Positions 14,553 through 51,713 of a stretch of 58,371 nt of DNA are shown one piece after another. The first letter of the stretch is position 1; every line of letters starts with the position of its first letter. The stretch lies in sequence record OZ035775.1, one strand, 5' to 3'. This stretch comes from Sashavirus BDX09P1. The position numbers were made by a program, and so were the translations under genes. The notes beneath the pieces were generated by a model that made no database searches, was not told the origin of the DNA, and saw only the letters and a list, made by a program, of their open reading frames with translations.

Positions 14553-14861
14553 ATGATGTTTGAACATCCGTGGAACATACCTGCATATGATGCTGAAAGT
14601 GAAAAACAATCACTTGACTATCAAATGAAAACACAACAAGTAGACTGGAGTGAAGCGCCAGACTGGGCTACATGTGTTGTTCTTAATAAGACAACAAACA
14701 CTTTTGCATGGTCTGACGGTTCAATGTACGCACCAATTTTAAGAAATCCACCACAAATTATGGAGAATGCTGATGACTTTGAAATCTTTGAAAAAACGCC
14801 CTTGTGGTCCAGCAACACCTGTCAAAACAAAACTGTTAATGACACCGAAAGCCCGTGGTAA
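14553..14861 (+). CDS. hypothetical protein
   Basis: Track ORF; GAGGAA RBS. Confidence 0.4.
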   Translation: MMFEHPWNIPAYDAESEKQSLDYQMKTQQVDWSEAPDWATCVVLNKTTNTFAWSDGSMYAPILRNPPQIMENADDFEIFEKTPLWSSNTCQNKTVNDTESPW

Positions 14862-15312
14862 CACTTATGAAGAATTCATCGCAACCGGGTGGAACGACGA
14901 CCAGTTAGTCGAACATGGTTATGCTATTCGTATTACAGACAAACGTTCCTGGTCACCAATGACCGTCGGAACTGAAACAATTACACCACCTTCAAATTGT
15001 CGGTGTACATTCACCCCTGTTCAACAACCATCAACAGCGTCTGACTTACTGAAACAGGCTGAACAGCTACTGACAGAACGTGGTAAGCAGTATGACACGT
15101 ATGGTCAGGAACGTTCGTCAGCTAAAATCGTTGCTGCGTTTAACACAATTACCGGGCGTGACTTAACACCAGGTGAAGGGTGGTTATTCCTGATGCTGTT
15201 AAAAGCGGTTCGTTTCTATTCCAATACTGAAACACCACATCGTGACAGTCTGGAAGACTTGATCAGCTATGCTGCATTACATGCAGAGGAATATCTTAAC
15301 AATGAACGGTGA
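14767..15312 (+). CDS. hypothetical protein carrying a TYEEFIATGWNDDQLVEHGY motif (start uncertain)
   Basis: Track ORF; true start may be the internal ATG near 14842; motif shared with C-terminus of the DUF2815-like protein. Confidence 0.4.
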   Translation: MLMTLKSLKKRPCGPATPVKTKLLMTPKARGNTYEEFIATGWNDDQLVEHGYAIRITDKRSWSPMTVGTETITPPSNCRCTFTPVQQPSTASDLLKQAEQLLTERGKQYDTYGQERSSAKIVAAFNTITGRDLTPGEGWLFLMLLKAVRFYSNTETPHRDSLEDLISYAALHAEEYLNNER

Positions 15313-41583: not shown

Positions 41584-42112
41584 GACGATTCATCCCTTCT
41601 AACATGTCCCAGATAAGCGCAACACGACGCGGGTCAGTGCTGATAGTGTGTAAAGTTTCACATCCGTAATGCCATCCCCAACGAACGGATAATTCTGACA
41701 ATAGATAACCACGGGAATTAGCCAGTTCAGCCAGTTCACCGGGTTTAAACGTCGTTGTATTAGGTTCTGTAAGAACACGAGTACCACAGATAGCGTCACT
41801 GATGCGCCACGGTTTCATCAGGTCATCAACTTTGTACCAGTTACTGATACTGATTTCAGACGTTCCCCAGCGTGCAGCCAGTTTAAGACGTTCCTGACGG
41901 GCCGGGAACATTGGCATCTGTGGTAAACGCAGTTGGATCTGTTCTGCAGGTTCAAACATGTCATCGTCTGTTAAACGAAATTCACCACGGTCATCAATAT
42001 AAAAACCACGGGAACGACCATCACGGGTGAACCCGTCAACACGGTTATAAATTTTACCGGGAGTAAAGACACCAATCGGTGAACCAGTTACGAATTTGTG
42101 TGAAGTATGCAT
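41576..42112 (-). CDS. hypothetical protein
   Basis: Track ORF. Confidence 0.4.
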   Translation of the reverse strand: MHTSHKFVTGSPIGVFTPGKIYNRVDGFTRDGRSRGFYIDDRGEFRLTDDDMFEPAEQIQLRLPQMPMFPARQERLKLAARWGTSEISISNWYKVDDLMKPWRISDAICGTRVLTEPNTTTFKPGELAELANSRGYLLSELSVRWGWHYGCETLHTISTDPRRVALIWDMLEGMNRHD

Positions 42113-42151
42113 TGTTATCGCCTCAATAAGTTTTAAATAATTCTATACGGT

Positions 42152-44008
42152 TTACCGAAGTGGTGCAACGAGTTTTTCAGCTTCTTTGATGTAAAAATCA
42201 TAATTGAGTGTTGCCCGGTTAAAACGTTTCATGTCGTTGCACTCAGTGGTCAACCAACCTTTACACACTGACATACGGCGTTCAGGCGCATCAGGGTTCA
42301 GTTTCAGTGATTTTGCCAGCGGTGGCATGACTTTTGTTAATGGTGCACCATCTGTGCTGACATAATAACGGGTAATGTTCTGAACCTGTTTGTCACCCCA
42401 TAACAACTTGCTGTTACGCGGCACTTTCGTCACCAACATAAAATCGTGAATATCGTCGTGTGATGTTATAAAATCACGAATATCTTTATTATGTACCAGT
42501 GCTGCTTCAGCCGCTTTTGCGACAACCTGCATACTGTGGTTTTGATGCCAACCAAGGTCAACGCTGTGACAATAAGCGCCTTTACGTTTAACTTTCTTAC
42601 CACCTTCGTAAACAGCGATGTAGTTGTTTACGTCGCGAATAAACATCACGTCATAAATCGCTTCTTCAAGCTGGAGTCTGGTTAATTTTTCCCACGCGTG
42701 ACGAACCTGTTCTACTTGTCCGGTAAACACTCGTGGTACGTAAACCGTAAGACCATCTGTGTTAGCCTGGATCATGGACAAACCAGGGATTTTCAGAAGT
42801 TCTTCAGCCAACATGCACAAAAGTAACTGTCCATTAATCGTAATAGCCATTGTATAAGCAGGATCGTAGAATGGACTGTATACGTTATTACTGTCACCAT
42901 ACACACCGTTTAACGCCAGTTTTAACATTGCATTTTCTGGTGTACCTTTCGGGTAACTGGAACGCATGTCGTAAACATTTTTATAAATGGTGCAAAATTG
43001 TTTTCCCAGATGTGCCGGATAAAGTTCATTACTGATCGCAAGGTTCGGGTAAAAACTGGCAACGTCCAGATCGATGATCACATAATTTTCACTGGACCTG
43101 ATAGTTTGAGACTCAATAGACCCGTGGATACCACCCGTACCAAAATCAAACGAGAACCCGTTAATGTCTGCACTTAAATCTGTAAATACACCTTTTGTTT
43201 CAGTGATGACCTGTTGACGTAACCAGTTAAGAACACGATTAAATTCAGGCTGTTCAAAACGGACATAAGGGAAAATCACGCTGTTTAATGCGATTGATAG
43301 TCTGTGCGTCTGTCGTGGTTTTCTACTACCCGGTTCGAAACATTGAATACCTGATTTTTCAAGTTCCATGATGAAATAGTCTTTACCGATTTTCGTGTCG
43401 TTATGGTTCATGAAATTACGACCGTATTTAGCAGAAAGTTCACGACGAAAATCTATCAGCTTTTTACTGTGTTTATAAAACATCAAAGTCGCTTTCAAAT
43501 CGTGCATCAGATATTGACGAAGCGTATCAATTTGAGAATCGGTTAAATAAGTCCCTGGTGTAAACGGAAGGTCTTCAATGTTTTCCATTCTCATATTGAA
43601 TTCAAGTGTTTTCAGACTTGTTCGTTTTGCCTGATTGTCGAAATGATGAATTTTGTACAAATCAAGCTGGGGAACTATCCAGTCTTTTTCCCACACCATA
43701 TGAGCAAAACGATTTTCATCACCGGCGTTAATTATCGAATCGCCTTTTTTGTAAATGTCTGCGTTGGTGATATACATGATGTTGTTCAAAATAGAATGCT
43801 GAACAGGATAGTCGTAACCCAGATTGTTATAACCAACTTCTTCAGCACGATGTTCACGCAAATATTCCGTGAAGAAGTAAAAAGCCTGACGATCATCGCG
43901 ACGATTTGAAATCTCAAAAATATAAGGCGTTTCAGTTAACGCGTGAATAGCACCGAACAGGAAAACATTAGGATAGTTTTCAATATCGTGAACGTAAGTA
44001 TCTGACAT
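42152..44008 (-). CDS. DNA polymerase, compact exonuclease-less type
   Basis: Motif-like strings DLDVASFYPNL, KLALNGVYGDSNN, QANTDGLTV in polymerase A/B/C order; family A versus B not resolved. Confidence 0.6.
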   Translation of the reverse strand: MSDTYVHDIENYPNVFLFGAIHALTETPYIFEISNRRDDRQAFYFFTEYLREHRAEEVGYNNLGYDYPVQHSILNNIMYITNADIYKKGDSIINAGDENRFAHMVWEKDWIVPQLDLYKIHHFDNQAKRTSLKTLEFNMRMENIEDLPFTPGTYLTDSQIDTLRQYLMHDLKATLMFYKHSKKLIDFRRELSAKYGRNFMNHNDTKIGKDYFIMELEKSGIQCFEPGSRKPRQTHRLSIALNSVIFPYVRFEQPEFNRVLNWLRQQVITETKGVFTDLSADINGFSFDFGTGGIHGSIESQTIRSSENYVIIDLDVASFYPNLAISNELYPAHLGKQFCTIYKNVYDMRSSYPKGTPENAMLKLALNGVYGDSNNVYSPFYDPAYTMAITINGQLLLCMLAEELLKIPGLSMIQANTDGLTVYVPRVFTGQVEQVRHAWEKLTRLQLEEAIYDVMFIRDVNNYIAVYEGGKKVKRKGAYCHSVDLGWHQNHSMQVVAKAAEAALVHNKDIRDFITSHDDIHDFMLVTKVPRNSKLLWGDKQVQNITRYYVSTDGAPLTKVMPPLAKSLKLNPDAPERRMSVCKGWLTTECNDMKRFNRATLNYDFYIKEAEKLVAPLR

Positions 44009-44088
44009 AATAAAACCCTGATAAGTAAATGGGGCACCATGGCCCCATGTCTGTTTAAAGCGGTATGTCGTCCCAGTTCCAGTAACTA

Positions 44089-44898
44089 TCAGTAACCGTT
44101 ACCGTTGAGAAAATTCGGGGCCGGGGTGGTCATTACCATATAACCGTTAGCGATCAGTTGTTCATCGTTCCAACCTTGCGCAATAAACTGTTCGTAAGTT
44201 GCACCACCTGCTTTTTCAGTCATCACCTTCACAGGTGCTGCCGCTGGTGTAGGCGCTGCTACAGGTGCTGCCGCTGGTGTAGGCGCTGCTACAGGTGTTA
44301 CGCCGATCGGACGTGCACCTTCAGGCATTGCAGGAGCAGCACCGAACACTGAGGCAGGAGCCGGACCAGAAATGATTTCTTCACCTGCATAAAGCAATTG
44401 CGCCATTTCCATGTTGATATACACACCAGCCTGATTACCTGTACGACCGTTTGCAACAGATGATCCGCTGATACGGTAGTAATAACCTTTTTTCGCCAGA
44501 TTTTTATCAATAACTGGTTGGTACGCTGCGTTATAAACAGGACACGCGTCAATAGCCACGTTGCGTGAGAAACCAATTACCCAGTGACCAGCATAACCAG
44601 TTTTACTCGCATGTTTCGGATCGTCACCGTTAATAATTTTCCATGCGAAAGTGGGTTGTTGTGGTTCGCCGTTCACATAGTGTGAGTTAGCTGCTCGCAT
44701 GATGGCCTGGAACACCGCACCAAGTTCACCTTGTTCTTCCCACCAGTTCGCAGCTGTTTTAGGAAATGCCAGACCAACCCACCAGTTATGTTTTTCAGGT
44801 GCTAACGGTTTATTTTCGTGGTCATGAGTGTTGATATCGAAAAAAGAACCGCCAACCAGACGACCAACCGGAGTTACAAAAGATTCTTTCTGTGCCAT
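44089..44898 (-). CDS. DUF2815-like phage protein (SSB-like partner of DUF2800)
   Basis: N-terminus MAQKESFVTPVGRLVGGSFF...; Pro/Ala repeat linker and conserved C-terminal peptide. Confidence 0.55.
   Translation of the reverse strand: MAQKESFVTPVGRLVGGSFFDINTHDHENKPLAPEKHNWWVGLAFPKTAANWWEEQGELGAVFQAIMRAANSHYVNGEPQQPTFAWKIINGDDPKHASKTGYAGHWVIGFSRNVAIDACPVYNAAYQPVIDKNLAKKGYYYRISGSSVANGRTGNQAGVYINMEMAQLLYAGEEIISGPAPASVFGAAPAMPEGARPIGVTPVAAPTPAAAPVAAPTPAAAPVKVMTEKAGGATYEQFIAQGWNDEQLIANGYMVMTTPAPNFLNGNGY
44231..44298 (-). repeat. 30-bp in-frame tandem repeat (about 2.3 copies)
   Basis: ACAGGTGCTGCCGCTGGTGTAGGCGCTGCT x2 encoding APTPAAAPVA. Confidence 0.8.
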
Positions 44899-44913
44899 GT
44901 TATTAACCTTCTT

Positions 44914-46059
44914 TTAAAGTGGACGTGCGCCAGTCGGCATCGTCACGGGTTTATTGAAAACAGATTCTGCCAGTGTGCTGTGACCTTTACGCGGGTCACT
45001 GTCAGGTACTAAAACTGGCCGACCTTCTGGTTTTGTTGTACACATGTCAACAAGTGCCGGAGGCAGTGATTTTTCCAGTGTTGACAACGGTTTTAATTTA
45101 CGTTCGTACAATGTTTCAGGGTTTACACCAAACATGGATGCAGCACCGATCAGTTTTCCTTCGTCCGTAAGCTGACGTCGGGTTTGCTTTGTTGCAAGTT
45201 TAAAACCCGGTAAAATCTTACCCATGCGAACAAAATGTAACCCCTGAGTATGTAACGCTGTTTTTGCTTCAGAAGAACGCGTATACAGTTCTTCAAGAAG
45301 TGCCAGACGACGCGCCACTTCTTCTGGCGTAAGTGATGGTGGTGCATCAAGAACAGTAGCCAATTCTAAAACCCTCTCATACATTGCCGGACACATACCA
45401 CGCGCCGGACAGTAATGACAATGACTACCAACATTTAACGGTGCGTCTGGTTTATGTGCTTCGTTAAACCCGTGTTTAAATCGTTCAGCCCATTCCATCA
45501 ATGTTACCCGGTTAAACTCCCACCGTCTTACAGGTCCGAGTGGGTGATAAGCCCGTGGCTGAACAATTGTGAACACAACGCGCTTAACTGTGTCGATGCA
45601 ACGTTGGTCCAGTGCATAATAGACCCCCTGTGAGTTATCAACTGCGTCAACTGCAACATGACCGTATTTATAATCCCATACATAAAGCGTATCAGTATTA
45701 AAGTCATACCAGCGATAATCACAGGTTCCGTACTGACCGGGTAACAACCAGTCAATGTGAATGCGAACTTCTGAAAACAGCGGATCAAGTTTCGCACCAA
45801 CTGAAAGAACATCTGCTATAAAGTCATCCGCGTAAATGTGCATGTCTTCAGTAACCTGAACACCGTTAGGAGCAAGACACGGCATTAATGGCGGTTTACC
45901 TTTAATCTTCTGTTCTAATACCCAGTGCCCGGCTGTACCTTCTTCAGCACTGGGTGACGATGGTTCTACATAGTCAATCCGCTGTGACAGTTGAACGCTA
46001 CCCGGACAAGCTAACCAACGTTTTGATCCACTGGCACTAAAGGTAGCGTGACTGGTCAT
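44914..46059 (-). CDS. DUF2800-like PD-(D/E)xK nuclease with C-terminal Cys cluster
   Basis: N-terminus MTSHATFSASGSKRWLACPGS; CHYCPARGMCP cluster (Cas4-like arrangement). Confidence 0.6.
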   Translation of the reverse strand: MTSHATFSASGSKRWLACPGSVQLSQRIDYVEPSSPSAEEGTAGHWVLEQKIKGKPPLMPCLAPNGVQVTEDMHIYADDFIADVLSVGAKLDPLFSEVRIHIDWLLPGQYGTCDYRWYDFNTDTLYVWDYKYGHVAVDAVDNSQGVYYALDQRCIDTVKRVVFTIVQPRAYHPLGPVRRWEFNRVTLMEWAERFKHGFNEAHKPDAPLNVGSHCHYCPARGMCPAMYERVLELATVLDAPPSLTPEEVARRLALLEELYTRSSEAKTALHTQGLHFVRMGKILPGFKLATKQTRRQLTDEGKLIGAASMFGVNPETLYERKLKPLSTLEKSLPPALVDMCTTKPEGRPVLVPDSDPRKGHSTLAESVFNKPVTMPTGARPL

Positions 46060-46820
46060 CAGAATGCCCCACCCATTTGTTTAACAGATTCAGCCTGACC
46101 AACAATGTTTTCAGCATCAGCAGGGGCAGCGTTAATACGTTCAATCAGTTCGATGATAGATTTCAGTTTTACTGGGTCGTCAATCTGCATCACGTTTTGA
46201 GTTTCATACAGTCCCATGATTCGCTGACTTAATGGCGCAGCACGGTCACCCATAATTTGTCCAAACATCTGCATCAGTGCTGACTGAAGAACCTGGGTGT
46301 TATAAACTTTAGCCGGATCCGTGGTTACAGGTTGCTCGACTGGTGCAGCCGGTACTGCTGGTACAACTGGAGCTACCGGAGCGGCAGGAACCGCTGGAGC
46401 AGGATCAACAGGTGCTACATAACCAGGTGCGAGTTCTGCAGGTCCGGTATAACGCCCTGCTTCAACTGCTTCAGCGATAAGTTCACGTTTAACACCGTCA
46501 ACAAACGCTTCATCCAGTTTTTTCTTTTGACGCCACAGACCATCACCTTTGTTCAGGGATTTACTGTCGGTGTGGATACGCGGATCATGACGCAAACCCC
46601 ATTTGTCGAACTCTTCAGTGCTGGTTTCGTTATCGTCAACATCTTCAGTTGGTGCAGATACAACAGGCAGTGATTCAGCAACGACAGTCACAGTTTCTTT
46701 AGTGATACCATCACCAGGAGCAGTCATAAGCGGTGCAGCACCAGTCGCAATCGCTGCTGCCAGATTGTTGATCGCAGTTTCCAGACCCGGAGCAGTTACA
46801 AGTAATTTAACTTCGAACAT
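46059..46820 (-). CDS. hypothetical protein with Pro/Ala/Val-rich linker
   Basis: PAPAVPAAPVAPVVPAVPAAPV low-complexity segment; first gene after P10/P11. Confidence 0.45.
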   Translation of the reverse strand: MFEVKLLVTAPGLETAINNLAAAIATGAAPLMTAPGDGITKETVTVVAESLPVVSAPTEDVDDNETSTEEFDKWGLRHDPRIHTDSKSLNKGDGLWRQKKKLDEAFVDGVKRELIAEAVEAGRYTGPAELAPGYVAPVDPAPAVPAAPVAPVVPAVPAAPVEQPVTTDPAKVYNTQVLQSALMQMFGQIMGDRAAPLSQRIMGLYETQNVMQIDDPVKLKSIIELIERINAAPADAENIVGQAESVKQMGGAF

Positions 46821-46990: not shown

Positions 46991-48652
46991 ATGAAAGCTC
47001 GTTATTATCAGACTGAAGCTATCAATAACGTATGTCAGGCATGGTCAAGCGGTGCTGACGACGTAATTCTTGTGCTTCCCACGGGGGCAGGAAAAACGTT
47101 CTGTATGTCTGAACTGGTAAAAACAAGAGACGGTGTAAAAGTCATTCAGGCACACCGTAAAGAACTGGTTAGTCAAATCGCAATGGCTGTTGCTCGCCAG
47201 GGATTACCACACAGATTTATAGCGCAAAAAGATACTGTTAAGTTTGCAACTAATCAGCAGATGAAAACGCTTGGTTACAGTACCTATTCCCCCGGTGCTG
47301 ACATCGTTATTACCAGTTCACAAACGTTAAGAACAAAACAGTACGAACGATGGTACAACGACGTGTCTCTTGTATTCAGCGACGAAGCGCATCACCTGGT
47401 GCGTGGCACACAGTGGGGAGACTGCCGGGAAAAATTCCCTAACGCTAAAGGTCTGGGTGTTACAGCTACACCGATCCGTGCTGACGGTAAAGGTCTGGGT
47501 CGTCATGCGTCAGGTTACGCAGATCAGATGATCATTGGTCCGTCAATGCGTGAGTTAATCAGTCAACAACATCTGGCTGATTATCGTCTGATTATGGCTG
47601 AAACAGACCTGGAATTAACCGCAGAAATGATTTCCCATACCACGGGTGATTACAAACCTTCCGCATTAAAAAAAGCGATGGAAGATTCAAACATCGTTGG
47701 TGATACCGTCAGTACGTGGAAAACGTACGCAGACGGTTTGCTCACTGTTGTGTTTACGTGTGATGTGGATTCTGCTGAAGCACTTGCAAAAGAATTTCGC
47801 GATGCTGGCATTCCTGCAGAGGCGATCAGTTCACGAAACAGCAATCAGGAACGAGCGGACATTCTAGAACGTTTTGAACGACGTAAGACGCTTGTACTGT
47901 GTAACAACGATTTATTCGGTGAAGGATACGACTGTCCGGCAATGGAATGTGCAGTAATGGATCGTCCCACAGAATCTTACTCTTTGTTTGTACAACAGAT
48001 GGGTCGTCCGTTGCGTTTCAAACCGGGTAAAAAAGCACTGATTATTGATAAAGTCGGTAATGTTCGTCGATTTCTGGCCCGTGGTTTTCCACTTCCCGAT
48101 CAGCATTACAACTGGTCTTTAGATGACCGCGACCGTCGTTCGTCAAACAGCAGTGGGAACAGTAATACAACATGTACAAATAAGGGTGACCCTGATAACG
48201 GTATTCCACCGTGTCTGAAGCCTTATCCGTCTGGTCTGCCGTGCTGCCCATATTGTGGTCATATTCCTGAAAAAGCCGAACGCTCAGGCCCGGATCGTGT
48301 AGAAGGTAATTTACGTGAACTGACACCTGAAGAACTAGAAGAATTACGCCGGGCAGTTGTGATAATCGACCGTGACCCTGTTGCAGTAAAAGAACAAATG
48401 TTAAACGCTGGTGCACCCCCTGTTGCAGCTTACAGTGCAATGAAAAACATTCAGGCAATGAACGATGCACAGCGTAAGTTACGCGGCATGATTACCACAT
48501 GGGCAGGTATTCAACGTGATAAAGGTATACCCGTTGATGACGCTTACAAGATGTTTTACAGGGTGTTTGGTGTTGATGTACTTAGCGCTCAGGGGTTGCG
48601 TACTCGTGAAGCTAATGAACTCGCCGCAAGGGTTGCAAGTTCATTAATCTGA
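46991..48652 (+). CDS. superfamily 2 DEAD/DEAH-box helicase
   Basis: Walker A LPTGAGKT, motif II SDEAHH. Confidence 0.8.
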   Translation: MKARYYQTEAINNVCQAWSSGADDVILVLPTGAGKTFCMSELVKTRDGVKVIQAHRKELVSQIAMAVARQGLPHRFIAQKDTVKFATNQQMKTLGYSTYSPGADIVITSSQTLRTKQYERWYNDVSLVFSDEAHHLVRGTQWGDCREKFPNAKGLGVTATPIRADGKGLGRHASGYADQMIIGPSMRELISQQHLADYRLIMAETDLELTAEMISHTTGDYKPSALKKAMEDSNIVGDTVSTWKTYADGLLTVVFTCDVDSAEALAKEFRDAGIPAEAISSRNSNQERADILERFERRKTLVLCNNDLFGEGYDCPAMECAVMDRPTESYSLFVQQMGRPLRFKPGKKALIIDKVGNVRRFLARGFPLPDQHYNWSLDDRDRRSSNSSGNSNTTCTNKGDPDNGIPPCLKPYPSGLPCCPYCGHIPEKAERSGPDRVEGNLRELTPEELEELRRAVVIIDRDPVAVKEQMLNAGAPPVAAYSAMKNIQAMNDAQRKLRGMITTWAGIQRDKGIPVDDAYKMFYRVFGVDVLSAQGLRTREANELAARVASSLI

Positions 48653-49358: not shown

Positions 49359-51713
49359 ATGAAAGGGTTACTGAACCGTAAACAGTGGGTCATGTGGCGG
49401 CTTGAGACAGTCGCCGATCGTCCAAAACCAACGAAAGTACCATACAGCCCGGTACACGGTTATAAAGCCAGTACCACTAACCCTAACGACTGGTCTGACT
49501 ATCACACCGCGTTGGGTATGGCGCAAATGTACGGTATGTCTGGTGTTGGTTTCGTATTCACAGAAAATGATCCTTATTTCTTTATTGATGTTGATAACTG
49601 TCTGGTAGATCAGGCAACAGCTACGTGGTCACCACTAGCGCATGAATTCGTAAACCGTTTTCCAAATGCTTACACTGAAGTCAGTCAGTCAGGAACAGGT
49701 TTGCATATTATCTGTGCTTATACCAGCATACCGGAAGGTTTTAACAGTCTGAACGACCAGAAAACCGGGCTGGAAATGTACTGGCGTGATCGTTTCGTCG
49801 CGATGACGCTCACGGGTAATGGTGATGTTGATATTGATTATACCCAGGGCATTCATGATTCTATTGCCCGGTATGGTCGCATCCGTTCAGACCGTTCCGC
49901 ACGCTGGACAACAGCACCCTGTGATGACTGGTCAGGCCCGGCAGACGATGATGAACTGATTAAAATGGCGTTAAATTCGTCCAGTGCTGCTTCAGTATTT
50001 GGTAATAAAGCGTCATTTGCAGATCTGTGGAATGCAAACGTTGAACGCCTGTCTGTGTCATATCCCAGCGACCAGGGAAAAGACTACAATGCATCTGCCG
50101 CTGATGCTGCCCTGTGCTCACACCTTGCGTTCTGGACCGGGAAAGATTGCGAACGTATTGAACGTCTATTTAACCGTTCCGGACTGGTTCGTGGTAAATG
50201 GACAGATCGTCAGGATTACCGTGAAAACACGATTCTGGGCGCTGTGGAACGTTGTGATACGGTTTATCGTAGTCAACCGACGCTGACACCAGAACTGATG
50301 AAAGCAGTCACACCAGCGCCTACCGTCGTTCCTAATGGTGGAACACCTGCGTACATGAGTGTGAAACCCGGTGAAGGTGCATATGGTTCAAACCACACGG
50401 TTAACGCATCCACGTTCGTTAATAACTATTATCCGAACAACACTTTGATTTTCGTCCAGCAACAGCCGTACCGGTTCAACGGTCGCGTGTGGGAACGTGT
50501 GAGTGAAGATGAACTGAAACATCAGATATCTATGGCAATGCTCGCCAGCGAACCAAAAGCTGACGTGATCAATGGTACGTACAAGGTTTTGTCGTATTTA
50601 TTCACACGCGCTGATCGTGAGCTTGGAACATGGCCCGGCGTTGATGTATCACACTATATTGTTTGTCAGAATGGGATACTGGATGTACATACGGGTAAAT
50701 GTGATGCACATAACCCGGACTTCTTTACGACCAGTATTTTACCGTATAGCTACGATCCGTTTGCCCGTGCGCCAGCATTTGAACAGTTTCTTAATACAAC
50801 TCTGGAAGGTGATCAGGAACGTATTGCACTGTTGCAGGAATGGCTGGGTTACATGCTTGTCAACTCGTATGACTATCAGAAAGCGATGCTGTTGATTGGT
50901 GCGCCACGTTCCGGTAAAGGTACGATTGGTCGAATCATTCAGGCACTAGTAGGTGATGAAGCGTATGCAGGGATCACACTGGAGGGTTTAGCCAGTGATG
51001 CGGTACTTGAAACTGTGCTGGATAAATCTGTACTGTTTATTGGTGATGCTCACAGTGTGTCCGGGCCTGATCGCAACCGAATTCTGGACCGTTTCAAATC
51101 TATTACAGGTTGTGATGCGATTCCGGTTAATCGTAAGTATAAAGGTGCATGGAACGGTCGTTTACCGGGACGTATGACACTGGCTGCTAACAACATCCCG
51201 GCATTTGCTGATGATTCAGGTGCAATGGCTAACCGTTTGCTGATCCTACCATTCAACATTTCGTTCCTGGGTCGTGAAGATACCACTCTGGAAGCACGAC
51301 TGATGAAAGAACTACCGGGGATCTGTAACTGGGCGATTGAAGGTTTGCAACGGTTACGTGCAAACGGACGGTTTACTGAACCAAAAGCAAGTCTGGAAGA
51401 ACGTCAGGAAATTATGGATCAACAATCACCACTTAGAAGTTTTATCAGAGATTGTTGCGAATTGGTATCTGATGGTGAGGTGCATACTGAAGAACTCTAT
51501 GGTCGTTATCGTCTCTGGAAAACACAGGAAGGTGGTCCAGCAATGACTAAAACTGCATTTAGTCGGGCATTTAAATCCACCCTTCGTGGTAAAGTGAAAA
51601 AAGACGTTGTTAATATAAATAACGTACGATTAAACGGTTTCAGGGGTATTCGTCTTCTCCCTTTTCAGTCAACAGCTAATGTAGTGCCTTTCCCACCTGC
51701 GAGTAACGGTTAG
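49359..51713 (+). CDS. primase / D5-like replicative NTPase
   Basis: 784 aa; Walker A GAPRSGKGT in C-terminal half, N-terminal primase-polymerase-sized domain. Confidence 0.75.
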   Translation: MKGLLNRKQWVMWRLETVADRPKPTKVPYSPVHGYKASTTNPNDWSDYHTALGMAQMYGMSGVGFVFTENDPYFFIDVDNCLVDQATATWSPLAHEFVNRFPNAYTEVSQSGTGLHIICAYTSIPEGFNSLNDQKTGLEMYWRDRFVAMTLTGNGDVDIDYTQGIHDSIARYGRIRSDRSARWTTAPCDDWSGPADDDELIKMALNSSSAASVFGNKASFADLWNANVERLSVSYPSDQGKDYNASAADAALCSHLAFWTGKDCERIERLFNRSGLVRGKWTDRQDYRENTILGAVERCDTVYRSQPTLTPELMKAVTPAPTVVPNGGTPAYMSVKPGEGAYGSNHTVNASTFVNNYYPNNTLIFVQQQPYRFNGRVWERVSEDELKHQISMAMLASEPKADVINGTYKVLSYLFTRADRELGTWPGVDVSHYIVCQNGILDVHTGKCDAHNPDFFTTSILPYSYDPFARAPAFEQFLNTTLEGDQERIALLQEWLGYMLVNSYDYQKAMLLIGAPRSGKGTIGRIIQALVGDEAYAGITLEGLASDAVLETVLDKSVLFIGDAHSVSGPDRNRILDRFKSITGCDAIPVNRKYKGAWNGRLPGRMTLAANNIPAFADDSGAMANRLLILPFNISFLGREDTTLEARLMKELPGICNWAIEGLQRLRANGRFTEPKASLEERQEIMDQQSPLRSFIRDCCELVSDGEVHTEELYGRYRLWKTQEGGPAMTKTAFSRAFKSTLRGKVKKDVVNINNVRLNGFRGIRLLPFQSTANVVPFPPASNG

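What the first reader, a model, noticed from the sequence alone, without database searches (positions are those of the whole stretch)
44140..44199. Shared peptide TYE(Q/E)FIA(Q/T)GWND(E/D)QL...GY in two unrelated proteins
The same ~20-aa motif is at the C-terminal tail of the DUF2815-like replication protein, after a Pro/Ala repeat linker, and near the N-terminus of the protein at 14767-15312 (nt ~14863-14928). Its placement on a flexible tail resembles the partner-recruiting tails of SSB proteins, so it may be a docking peptide for a common partner.
Basis: seen in the sequence. Interest (0 to 1): 0.5.

Follow-up and report, generated by a model that had tools for sequence, protein, structure and literature searches.

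The report
Shared mini-domain on phage replication proteins
The shared peptide is real: it is a roughly 35-residue module, predicted to fold on its own, that hundreds of phage lineages hang on flexible tethers from their DNA-replication proteins (above all the single-strand DNA-binding protein), most likely to hold those proteins together at the replication fork, and I found no description of it.

Summary
TYEQFIAQGWNDEQLIANGY (44140-44199, minus strand) and TYEEFIATGWNDDQLVEHGY (14863-14922) are homologous (BLASTP E=1e-12). Their codons have diverged, so this is not a recent copy.

Two corrections:
- The second carrier is not a free-standing protein with an N-terminal motif. It is the 3' piece of a DUF6378 gene split by an extra A (A6 at 14791-14796; intact relatives have A5). 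In intact orthologues the motif lies in the inter-domain linker.
- The element is longer than 20 residues. AlphaFold2 predicts a confident strand-helix-helix-strand mini-domain of about 35 residues (pLDDT 90 in isolation).

A profile of it finds 918 protein clusters. Most are C-termini of gp2.5/Enc34-type SSBs, after Pro/Ala linkers. It also occurs on DUF669 SSBs, inserted in a family-A DNA polymerase and an SF2 helicase, on GapR-like, DUF7173 and DUF6378 proteins, and in tandem copies. Phages repeatedly carry it on two or more proteins. Pfam, NCBIfam and PDB have no match.

Best reading: a tethered protein-docking module of the phage replisome that stands in for the usual acidic SSB tail. The partner is unknown; the module itself, the SSB core or a host factor remain open.

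The parts
44089..44898 (-). Gene for the gp2.5/Enc34-type ssDNA-binding (and annealing) protein, 269 aa. It is the main carrier of the module.
   Evidence: ORF. PHROG 7011 E=2.6e-92. Family profile hits PDB 4jg2, 4klk and 5odk. AF2 model has mean pLDDT 88.7 with an OB-type core over residues 1-190.
44236..44328 (-). Disordered Pro/Ala-rich linker (about residues 191-221). It includes a 30-nt tandem repeat at 44231-44297.
   Evidence: TRF: period 30, 2.2 copies, 100% match. pLDDT is below 50 for residues 201-218. The Sasha orthologue is identical except for 34 extra linker residues.
44125..44235 (-). Module copy 1 (residues 222-258, PVKVMTEKAGGATYEQFIAQGWNDEQLIANGYMVMTT). Predicted as strand, short turn, helix, G-W turn, helix, strand.
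   Evidence: Profile score 70.9 bits. pLDDT 88-95 in the full-length model. pLDDT 90.3 and pTM 0.61 when modelled alone. The same fold appears in independent BFVD models of other carriers.
44092..44124 (-). C-terminal tip PAPNFLNGNGY. This is a second short conserved element, ending in an aromatic residue.
   Evidence: Conserved in 9NA/Klebsiella/Proteus-type SSBs (TTPAPGFLTGNGY, KTTPAPGFLAGNGQY). Low pLDDT for residues 264-269. Related (N/H)P(A/G)(F/I)L strings lie in the linkers of most other family members.
14553..14861 (+). 5' piece (102 aa) of the split DUF6378-family gene: the N-terminal domain (WSEAPDWATCVV...), read through into an out-of-frame tail.
   Evidence: PHROG 32742 E=1e-24. 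Colinear with the N-terminal part of the single-ORF orthologues.
14791..14796 (+). A6 homopolymer. One A more than in intact relatives, giving a +1 nt frameshift that splits the gene.
   Evidence: Alignment with KarinMuster, which has A5. Removing one A restores a 252-aa protein that aligns end to end with the single-ORF orthologues and has the length of cluster P0290. The same A6 occurs in an independent, diverged contig, L105.
14767..15312 (+). 3' piece (ORF of 181 aa): linker with module copy 2, plus the C-terminal DUF6378 domain (nt 15046-15288).
   Evidence: Pfam PF19905 DUF6378, 33.5 bits against a cut-off of 27.1, residues 94-174. Homologues.
14830..14934 (+). Module copy 2 (KLLMTPKARGNTYEEFIATGWNDDQLVEHGYAIRI).
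   Evidence: Profile score 68.5 bits. BLASTP against copy 1 E=1e-12. The BFVD model of 9NA gp29 superposes on the module model at 0.3 A over 30 residues.
42152..44008 (-). Context and candidate partner: DNA polymerase (618 aa) directly downstream of the SSB gene.
   Evidence: PHROG 1252 E=3e-214. A homologue lies within 10 kb of the module in 46 of 80 related viral loci.
44914..46059 (-). Context and candidate partner: DUF2800 PD-(D/E)XK exonuclease directly upstream of the SSB gene.
   Evidence: Pfam PF10926 E=2e-57. A homologue lies in 69 of 80 related viral loci.
46991..48652 (+). Context and candidate partner: SF2 (ResIII/DEAD) helicase.
   Evidence: Pfam. A homologous helicase in locus L080 carries the module as an insertion.
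49359..51713 (+). Context and candidate partner: NrS-1-type primase-polymerase fused to a D5-like helicase (784 aa).
   Evidence: Pfam PF22763 + PF08706 + PF19263. Counterparts exist in L016, L018 and L019.

Best explanation
The shared sequence is one copy each of a small, autonomous, insertable mini-domain of about 35 residues. Its predicted order is strand, short turn, helix, Gly-Trp turn, helix, strand, with the N- and C-termini side by side.

Phages attach it through disordered Pro/Ala-rich tethers to proteins that work on replicating DNA. In a large group of gp2.5/Enc34-type SSBs and some DUF669-type SSBs it takes the place of the usual acidic C-terminal tail.

Most likely it is a protein-protein docking module. 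Each carrier would be tethered to one common receptor at the replication fork. In this phage the SSB, and in the intact form of the gene also the DUF6378 protein encoded next to dUTPase, would be brought to the same place.

The receptor is not identified. In order of my preference the candidates are:
1. The module itself (homotypic pairing), or the SSB core. Non-SSB carriers would then be recruited to SSB-coated DNA.
2. Another phage replisome or recombination protein: the DUF2800 exonuclease, the polymerase, or the primase-helicase.
3. A conserved host factor.

Shown: homology of the two copies, the anatomy, the distribution, the predicted fold, and the absence from Pfam, NCBIfam and the PDB. 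Inferred: that it binds a protein, and which one.
For: 1. The similarity is real and selected. Pair E=1e-12, and the codons have diverged.

2. In the 120 listed SSB homologues the profile finds the module at or near the C-terminus in 96, and most of the rest carry a related variant. The linker before it varies in length through tandem-repeat copy number, while the module stays unchanged; Sasha and the window differ only by 34 linker residues.

3. The fold is predicted with high confidence both in context (pLDDT 88-95, with the linker below 50) and alone (pLDDT 90.3). Independent BFVD models of other carriers agree: 13 hits with probability 0.85-1.00 and TM-score 0.56-0.75 normalised to the query.

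4. The module is promiscuous. The profile finds 918 clusters at E<=1e-3. Carriers include PF10991 SSBs and DUF669 SSBs (PF05037), DUF7173, phrog_11133 proteins, scaffold-like proteins with 2-3 copies, a 2613-aa protein, a family-A DNA polymerase and an SF2 helicase with the module inserted in a loop, and GapR-like proteins.

5. Two or more different proteins of one phage carry it repeatedly: the window, 9NA, Carvaje, KP13-27, KarinMuster and AVIO78A; Vibrio phage 1.049.O; and L019, L028, L031/32, L044, L074 and L080. In L028 and L044 the copies within one genome share lineage-specific peculiarities.

6. Characterised relatives carry acidic partner-binding tails at the same position: Enc34 ORF6 and T7 gp2.5 (PMC5686142) and DUF669 (PMC4889955).

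7. Net charge averages -1.3, and the conserved positions are hydrophobic, Gly, or helix caps. This argues against a basic DNA-binding surface.
Against: No interaction was tested or modelled, because the tools do not predict complexes.

Nearly all conserved positions can be explained by fold stability alone, so no conserved binding surface is evident.

No single phage-encoded protein accompanies the module everywhere. The neighbouring polymerase is of the window's type (PolB-like by motifs read from the sequence) in 46 loci and PolA-type in 29 loci. DUF2800 is present in 69 of 80 loci but is absent from the 20 kb of contig L016 that was retrieved.

In DUF6378 proteins the module is optional, and in this window that gene is frameshifted.

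The fold is a prediction for a very small domain, and structure searches have little power at this size.
Confidence: 0.5

Rival explanations
1. Self-regulating SSB tail. The module folds back into, or swaps onto, the ssDNA-binding groove of the SSB (in cis or on a neighbouring SSB). There it would tune DNA affinity and cooperativity, as the acidic tail of T7 gp2.5 does. Copies on other proteins would be by-products of recombination without a shared partner.
For: By far the most common location is the SSB C-terminus. The module is mildly acidic. In Enc34 ORF6 and T7 gp2.5 the tail contacts the DNA-binding face and modulates DNA binding (PMC5686142).
Against: The module is maintained under selection on non-SSB proteins (codon divergence). 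It is inserted into polymerase and helicase loops. It is attached to two different SSB families. The pTM of the full-length model (0.68) roughly equals the core's share of the chain, so AF2 may not dock the module on the core; this is a weak inference.
Confidence: 0.15
2. Host-factor hijack. The module binds a conserved proteobacterial protein, for example RNA polymerase, DnaB or DnaG, or the beta clamp or clamp loader. This would couple several phage proteins to host machinery.
For: The module is well conserved across phages of Salmonella, Klebsiella, Vibrio, Burkholderia, Stenotrophomonas and Yersinia, and across metagenomic phages whose polymerases differ. A precedent recalled from memory, not checked here: the N4 SSB activates host RNA polymerase through its C-terminal part.
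Against: The carriers belong to phages that encode their own polymerase, helicase and primase. The clamp-binding signature is not met, since Gln before the conserved Leu occurs in only 33% of copies. There is no direct evidence for any host partner.
Confidence: 0.15
3. Nucleic-acid-binding mini-domain. A helix-turn-helix hairpin, reminiscent of HhH, SAP or HeH motifs, adds DNA or fork contacts to DNA enzymes.
For: Nearly all carriers whose family could be recognised are DNA-binding proteins: SSBs, polymerase, helicase, GapR-like. The module has two short helices joined by a Gly-aromatic turn.
Confidence: 0.08
4. In this particular window the second copy is non-functional cargo. The DUF6378 gene is a pseudogene or an assembly error, and the motif in its linker is one of several interchangeable mosaic cassettes without a role.
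For: An A6 frameshift splits the gene. Of 120 DUF6378 clusters, 35 lack the motif and 24 keep only its second half, and the linker is a patchwork of short cassettes.
Against: 61 of 120 clusters keep the full module with strong conservation. The intact 252-aa form is the most populated cluster (99 member sequences). Synonymous divergence between the two window copies indicates long-term selection. The A6 may be a homopolymer error.
Confidence: 0.1

Closest known systems
C-terminal tail of T7 gp2.5 and of Enc34 ORF6 (T7-type phage SSBs)
   Same: The protein family is the same (OB core). The position is the same, after the core at the end of a flexible segment. The window SSB also ends in an aromatic residue, as gp2.5 does. 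In T7 the tail recruits the polymerase and the helicase-primase and competes with ssDNA (PMC5686142).
   Different: Those tails are unstructured and strongly acidic: 16 of the last 29 residues in Enc34. Here the tail is a Pro/Ala linker followed by a conserved, nearly neutral, predicted folded mini-domain. The same element also occurs on non-SSB proteins.
E. coli SSB intrinsically disordered linker plus acidic tip (SSB-Ct, DDDIPF) as an interaction hub
   Same: The architecture matches: OB core, a Pro-rich disordered linker of variable length, and a conserved terminal element. The function is recruitment of many genome-maintenance proteins (PMC7145534 and PMC10164576, listed).
   Different: In E. 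coli one protein carries the tip and many partners bind it. Here many different proteins carry the same module. No acidic tip is present. The element is about 35 residues and predicted to be folded.
PIP-box and clamp-binding motifs, and T4 gp45-binding tails
   Same: The logic matches (from general knowledge): unrelated replication proteins share one small element at termini or in loops, on flexible tethers, which brings them to a common hub.
   Different: The consensus QL[SD]LF or QxxLxxFF is not met, since Gln is only 33% conserved. The element is a mini-domain rather than a linear peptide. No clamp gene was recognised among the window ORFs scanned around the replication module, 36-52 kb.
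C-terminal domain of Red-beta/RecT-type annealases that binds the cognate exonuclease
   Same: gp2.5-type SSBs also act as annealases. The gene here lies next to a DUF2800 exonuclease (69 of 80 loci). In lambda Red, a small helical C-terminal domain of the annealase binds the exonuclease (recalled from the literature, not checked here).
   Different: The fold and size differ, and there is no sequence similarity. The module also occurs in the region of contig L016 that was retrieved, which holds no DUF2800 gene, and on polymerases and helicases.

Membership tests
T7 gp2.5 / Enc34 (PF10991, formerly DUF2815) SSB family, for the carrier protein 44089-44898 | T7-type OB-fold core recognisable by sequence profile | tested here: met
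   PHROG 7011 E=2.6e-92. The family profile hits PDB 4jg2 (E=2e-11), 4klk DUF2815 (E=0.008) and 5odk (E=0.28). Several homologues have PF10991 precomputed. The window protein alone gives no Pfam hit.
T7 gp2.5 / Enc34 SSB family | Unstructured, strongly acidic C-terminal tail | tested here: not met
   The tail (residues 191-269) is Pro/Ala-rich with only 5 acidic residues. The module has a net charge of about -2 and is predicted folded. Enc34 has 16 acidic residues among its last 29.
T7 gp2.5 / Enc34 SSB family | Tail binds the phage polymerase and helicase-primase | not testable with these tools
   The tools cannot predict complexes or run binding assays.
DUF6378 (PF19905), for the second carrier | Pfam domain score above the gathering threshold | tested here: met
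   33.5 bits against a cut-off of 27.1, residues 94-174 of ORF 14767-15312. All 120 listed homologues carry PF19905.
DUF6378 (PF19905) | Intact single ORF as in orthologues | tested here: not met
   The A6 run at 14791-14796 splits the gene into 14553-14861 and 14767-15312. Relatives with A5 are intact.
Bacterial clamp-binding motif / PIP box | Conserved Gln followed by hydrophobic and aromatic positions (QL[SD]LF or QxxLxxFF) | tested here: not met
   Across 214 instances the Gln column is only 33% Gln, and the spacing to the aromatic residue does not fit.
HhH / SAP-HeH / UBA-type two- or three-helix DNA- or protein-binding motifs | Structural or profile similarity to these folds | tested here: not met
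Decapeptide repeat region (PF25296) | Score above the gathering threshold | tested here: not met
   Only weak hits over the module, 13-18 bits against a cut-off of 45. The IcmE/DotG hit of the SSB profile covers the linker plus the module, with no stretch significant on its own.
Proposed new family: tethered 'GW' mini-domain of phage replication proteins | Profile match to (V/R)xM(T/L)xKAxGxTYExhIxxGW(T/N)DxxL(I/V)xxG(Y/M)M, preceded by a disordered linker | tested here: met
   Both window copies score 68-71 bits. 918 clusters at E<=1e-3. Column conservation: W 94%, G 96%, G 91%, A 92%.

The most novel reading that the evidence does not exclude
The mini-domain is a common 'replisome tag'. By pairing with itself or with the SSB, it would link the SSB, polymerase, helicase, GapR-like proteins and nucleotide-metabolism accessories such as DUF6378 into one multivalent assembly on phage replication forks. 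The tandem copies and Pro/Ala tethers would supply the multivalency. That would be a previously unrecognised way of organising a viral replisome, and a route for delivering a nucleotide-handling protein to the fork.
Probability: 0.25. Interest if true: 0.8.

Novelty: new variant of a known kind. Interest (0 to 1): 0.62.

Why it matters
SSB tails are the organising hubs of bacterial and phage replisomes. The known ones are short acidic peptides carried by a single protein.

Here a large, mostly metagenomic group of phages (918 clusters at 50% identity) uses a conserved, predicted folded mini-domain instead. The same domain sits on polymerases, helicases and accessory proteins. If it is a docking module, three things follow:
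- It defines a new family of interaction domains.
- It gives a handle for finding who binds whom in replication modules that are largely unstudied: 9NA/Sasha-type phages and many marine phages.
- It links the uncharacterised DUF6378 protein, encoded next to dUTPase, physically to the fork.

Tractable isolates exist for experiments: Salmonella phage 9NA, and E. coli phage KarinMuster_Bas82 whose record lists Escherichia coli as host.

Tried and rejected
- **Chance or low-complexity match:** rejected (E=1e-12; only two profile hits in six frames).
- **Recent intragenomic duplication:** rejected for the window, because the codons have diverged. It may apply to L044, where 23 of 28 codons are identical.
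- **Mosaic junction inside the SSB gene:** suspected because megablast breaks at 44298. Rejected: the break is only a difference in tandem-repeat copy number.
- **PF25296 'Decapeptide' and IcmE/DotG hits:** sub-threshold and treated as not significant.
- **Programmed frameshift at the A6 run:** considered but not supported. No canonical slippery heptamer lies in frame, and most relatives are simply A5. The recurrence of A6 in L105 remains unexplained.
- **First word-index search with the motif profile:** it returned only 30-70-aa ORF fragments. These were useful as seeds but say nothing about context.
- **Partner by co-occurrence:** no phage protein is universal. The polymerase is PolB-like or PolA. 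DUF2800 is frequent, but it is syntenic with the SSB in any case. My iterative search for D5-like helicases in the 80 loci found none.
- **afdb50 fold search:** the library was unavailable.
- **Literature searches:** Enc34, 9NA, DUF2815, DUF6378, DUF669, gp2.5-like and Nmad1 turned up no description of the motif.
Full report
**1. Setting.** The window is a 9NA/Sasha-type siphophage. It is 97.6% identical over 42000-46500 to Sashavirus 536P12 and 97.2% identical to Salmonella phage Solent. The finding concerns two ORFs:
- 44089-44898 (minus strand, 269 aa). It lies between a DUF2800 exonuclease gene (44914-46059) and a DNA polymerase gene (42152-44008).
- 14767-15312 (plus strand, 181 aa). It is transcribed divergently from the dUTPase gene.

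**2.
- Residues T234-Y253 of the first protein (nt 44140-44199) read TYEQFIAQGWNDEQLIANGY. Residues T33-Y52 of the second (nt 14863-14922) read TYEEFIATGWNDDQLVEHGY.
- BLASTP of the two proteins gives one significant segment, 25/46 identical, E=1e-12, and nothing else. The similarity extends upstream (PVK..(V/L)MTxKAxG) and a few residues downstream.
- Regular expressions and a family HMM find exactly these two copies in the six-frame translation, at 70.9 and 68.5 bits, with no other hit at E<=1.
- At the DNA level the copies have diverged. In the 29-residue core, 56 of 87 bases are identical, and only 7 of 17 identical non-Met/Trp residues share a codon. The peptide has therefore been kept by selection in both places and is not a recent duplication.
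- The Pro/Ala linker before the SSB copy is a perfect 30-nt tandem repeat, 2.2 copies, at 44231-44297.

**3. Correction to the second carrier.**
- In 9NA (gp29, 268 aa), KarinMuster_Bas82 (246 aa), Carvaje (227 aa), KP13-27 (232 aa) and AVIO78A (227 aa) the homologous gene is a single ORF.
- That ORF has three parts: an N-terminal domain (WSEAPDWATCVV..., PHROG 32742), a linker, and a C-terminal DUF6378 domain (PF19905).
- The window ORF 14553-14861 is that N-terminal domain. The window has GAAAAAACG (A6, 14791-14796) where KarinMuster has GAAAAACG. Deleting one A restores a 252-aa protein that aligns end to end with the orthologues. It has the same length as the most populated database cluster, P0290 (252 aa, 99 member sequences, 97% identical to ORF 14767-15312).
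- The motif therefore lies in an inter-domain linker, not at an N-terminus. In this window the gene is split.
- The same A6 and the same split occur in an independent, otherwise diverged contig, L105. I cannot tell whether this is a homopolymer error or a real hot spot.

**4. Conservation in orthologues.**
- *SSB.* Among the 120 listed database homologues of the SSB, the motif HMM hits 96, at or close to the C-terminus and always after a Pro/Ala-rich low-complexity stretch. Most of the remaining 24 carry a recognisably related variant (...YTEAALKSAGHSDELIASYP...WTEAQLLAAGYTxEQIxALP). Several have two or three tandem copies.
- *Linker.* The Sasha SSB is identical to the window protein except for 34 more linker residues. 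Linker length drifts through repeat copy number while the module stays fixed.
- *DUF6378 family.* Here the module is optional. Of 120 clusters, 61 have it in full, 24 keep only the second half (VTRVNDDQLVxHGY) and 35 lack it. The linker is a patchwork of short interchangeable cassettes.

**5. It is a mini-domain, not a 20-residue peptide.**
- AlphaFold2 on the full SSB with 116 sequences gives a confident OB core (residues 1-190). The linker is disordered (residues 201-218, pLDDT below 50).
- The model then has a confident segment, 221-260 (pLDDT 88-95): strand 223-226 (VKVM), helix 235-240, helix 245-250, strand 254-257 (MVMT). The last six residues are disordered.
- Modelled alone (44 residues, 124 sequences), the segment keeps this structure with mean pLDDT 90.3 and pTM 0.61.
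- The isolated model has only these two strands, so they must pair with each other. The two ends therefore lie side by side, which is the geometry of a domain that can be inserted into loops.
- BFVD models of other carriers superpose on it: Sasha SSB, Yersinia phage fEV-1 g49c, Shewanella phage 1/44 S144_73 and 9NA gp29, the last at 0.3 A over 30 residues.
- Across 214 instances the most conserved columns are Gly 96%, Trp 94%, Ala 92%, Gly 91%, Met 87%, Gly 85%, Leu 85%, Asp 84%, Tyr/Thr/Met 77% and Glu 75%. These are mostly core, turn and helix-cap positions. Net charge averages -1.3, with a 5th to 95th percentile range of -4 to 0.

**6. Distribution and contexts.** A profile built from the two window copies and 22 database fragments (A5) was run against 1.84 billion representative proteins. 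It finds 918 clusters at E<=1e-3 and 236 at E<=1e-10. In cultured phages the module is rare, a few dozen of 50,697 records, chiefly 9NA-like phages and a few Vibrio, Burkholderia, Yersinia, Stenotrophomonas and Proteus phages.

| Carrier | Where the module sits |
|---|---|
| gp2.5/Enc34-type SSBs (the majority) | C-terminus |
| DUF669-type SSBs (PF05037) | Followed by a second linker and a ...PPW tip |
| DUF7173 proteins, phrog_11133 proteins | Towards the C-terminus; the phrog_11133 proteins also carry a DG.PWD.RIH...G.W.KR motif |
| Scaffold-like proteins | 2-3 copies in acidic or Pro/Ala linkers |
| A 2613-aa protein | Residues 293-334 |
| Family-A DNA polymerase (PF00476) | Inserted at residues 550-588 of 805; the adjacent SSB also ends in it (L031/L032) |
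| SF2 helicase (ResIII + Helicase_C) | Inserted between the ResIII and Helicase_C regions; the same locus has a three-copy SSB (L080) |
| GapR-like DNA-binding proteins (PF10073) | N-terminus (L074, L079) |
| Unannotated 527-aa and 488-aa proteins of Vibrio phage 1.049.O and Shewanella phage 1/44 | Internal |

The DUF2815 SSB of phage 1.049.O itself carries two divergent copies.

Carriage by two or more proteins of one phage is recurrent. It is seen in the window, five 9NA-like relatives, 1.049.O, L019, L028, L031/32, L044, L074 and L080. In L028 and L044 the copies on different proteins of one genome share lineage-specific peculiarities.

**7. What it is not.**
- Pfam-A, NCBIfam and PHROGs have no model for it.
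- Weak PF25296 'Decapeptide' hits (13-18 bits against a cut-off of 45) and an IcmE/DotG hit of the SSB profile are below significance.
- The clamp-binding or PIP signature is not met.
- Literature searches found no description of the motif.
- The characterised relatives have plain acidic tails. Enc34 ORF6 has 16 acidic residues among its last 29, and these affect DNA discrimination. T7 gp2.5's tail binds the polymerase and helicase-primase (PMC5686142). DUF669/N4-type SSBs are described as having acidic tails (PMC4889955).

**8. Mechanism.** The best-supported reading is a tethered protein-docking module. The reasons are:
- It sits where SSBs keep their partner-binding tails.
- It hangs on a disordered tether of unconstrained length.
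- It can be moved, inserted and repeated.
- It is attached to functionally linked but unrelated proteins of the same phage.
- It is not basic.

These are inferences from anatomy and distribution; no binding was tested.

The receptor is open. In some phages the polymerase or the helicase itself carries the module. The neighbouring polymerase is of the window's type in 46 of 80 loci and PolA-type in 29 of 80. I read the window type as PolB-like from DxxSFYP and NTDG motifs in the sequence, which agrees with the COG0417 note on BcepB1A gp69. A specific polymerase family is therefore unlikely to be the universal receptor.

An SSB carrier is present in most genomes that have a non-SSB carrier. This makes module-module pairing, or binding to the SSB, attractive. 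L079 is an exception: its GapR-like protein carries the module but the SSB in the locus does not.

The DUF2800 exonuclease is the most constant neighbour (69 of 80 loci) and would fit the annealase-exonuclease precedent. However, it is syntenic with this SSB family anyway, and it is absent from the region of contig L016 that was retrieved. A host factor cannot be excluded.

For this phage, the intact DUF6378 protein would be brought to the same place as the SSB. One relative annotates this protein as 'nucleotide modification associated domain 1', and it is encoded next to dUTPase. This is reminiscent of the coupling between nucleotide-metabolism enzymes and the T4 replisome, which I recall from general knowledge and did not test.

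**9. Verdict.** It is a new variant of a known kind, the partner-recruiting SSB tail. Function and partner remain to be shown.

Noticed in passing
window 14791-14796 (and locus L105): An A6 homopolymer splits the DUF6378-family gene into ORFs 14553-14861 and 14767-15312. Close relatives have A5 and an intact 246-252-aa gene. An independent, diverged metagenomic contig has the same A6 and the same split. In the shifted frame a GGAG lies 7 nt before the ATG at 14773. This could be a sequencing error, a mutational hot spot or slippage; it is undecided.
   Followed up: partly
window 44231-44297: A perfect 30-nt tandem repeat encodes the Pro/Ala linker of the SSB. Its copy number differs between otherwise identical phages: the window has 2.2 copies, and Sasha's linker is 34 residues longer. 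Database relatives of 261, 267, 297 and 331 aa are more than 95% identical over aligned positions.
   Followed up: yes
window 44092-44124 (minus strand): The extreme C-terminus PAPNFLNGNGY is a second short conserved element. It recurs as TTPAPGFL(T/A)GNG(Q)Y in Klebsiella and Proteus phage SSBs. Similar strings ((N/H)P(A/G)(F/I)L, PAPNFAQGGGY) lie in the linkers of most other family members. The helicase insertion in L080 ends in ...SLNGDG.
   Followed up: partly
proteins P0201, P0204, P0226, P0237, P0269, P0273, P0287; loci L028, L044, L079: Another recurrent short motif travels with the module in tails and scaffold-like proteins. Its forms are (W)xDxxGxxWDxxxHxxSK...PPVTxKGxFKKRRG and DxDGxPWDxRIHxxxK...GxWxKR. 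Many of these proteins end in an acidic-aromatic ...(I/L)(I/V)K(D/S)W tip, like an SSB tail. This suggests a shared toolkit of tail motifs.
   Followed up: no
window 14940-15040 and DUF6378 homologues P0289-P0408: The linker of the DUF6378 family is a mosaic of short interchangeable cassettes: PDVTVTRVNDDRLTESLR, NDEITKYEQQSLADLHLAHLFTPVQ, SWSPMTVGTETITPPSNCRCTFTPVQ. They are combined differently in closely related phages. 9NA has the full module followed by a degenerate half copy.
   Followed up: partly
window 14767-15312: PHROG families 474 and 1167, which match the DUF6378 domain, are labelled 'phosphofructokinase', and RefSeq copies this label for Carvaje gp027. Nothing seen here backs that label: Pfam reports only DUF6378 and NCBIfam reports nothing. 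Another record calls the domain 'nucleotide modification associated domain 1'. The label is probably an annotation artefact.
   Followed up: partly
window 42152-44008 (minus strand): The 618-aa DNA polymerase has no Pfam or NCBIfam hit at all, although PHROG 1252 matches at E=3e-214. By eye it carries PolB-like motifs (DLDVASFYPN, QANTDG).
   Followed up: no
loci L031 (5714-8638) and L032 (6150-8564): The family-A polymerases that carry the inserted module also appear to contain intein-like insertions at different sites in the two near-identical contigs (CFAADTQILT...HNC in L031; C...VLTDRG...AHNC in L032).
   Followed up: no
locus L016 (JGI contig Ga0598323_000001): The phage contig whose DUF669 SSB carries the module also encodes a Sak4-like AAA_24 protein, a DUF7173 protein, an NrS-1-type primase-polymerase and a 7-deazaguanine (QueC/QueD/FolE/radical SAM) cluster.
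   Followed up: no
loci L019 (9117-10001) and L028 (8840-9928): A Cys-rich protein family of 294-363 aa (…GK.FRF…C.KSFY…PDCFSSDG..P…C.ECP.NVFGSG…GK.CGDHKNL…) ends in the module. It lies next to a multi-copy scaffold-like carrier. L019 also encodes a family-A polymerase. It may be a further SSB type; it was not classified.
   Followed up: no
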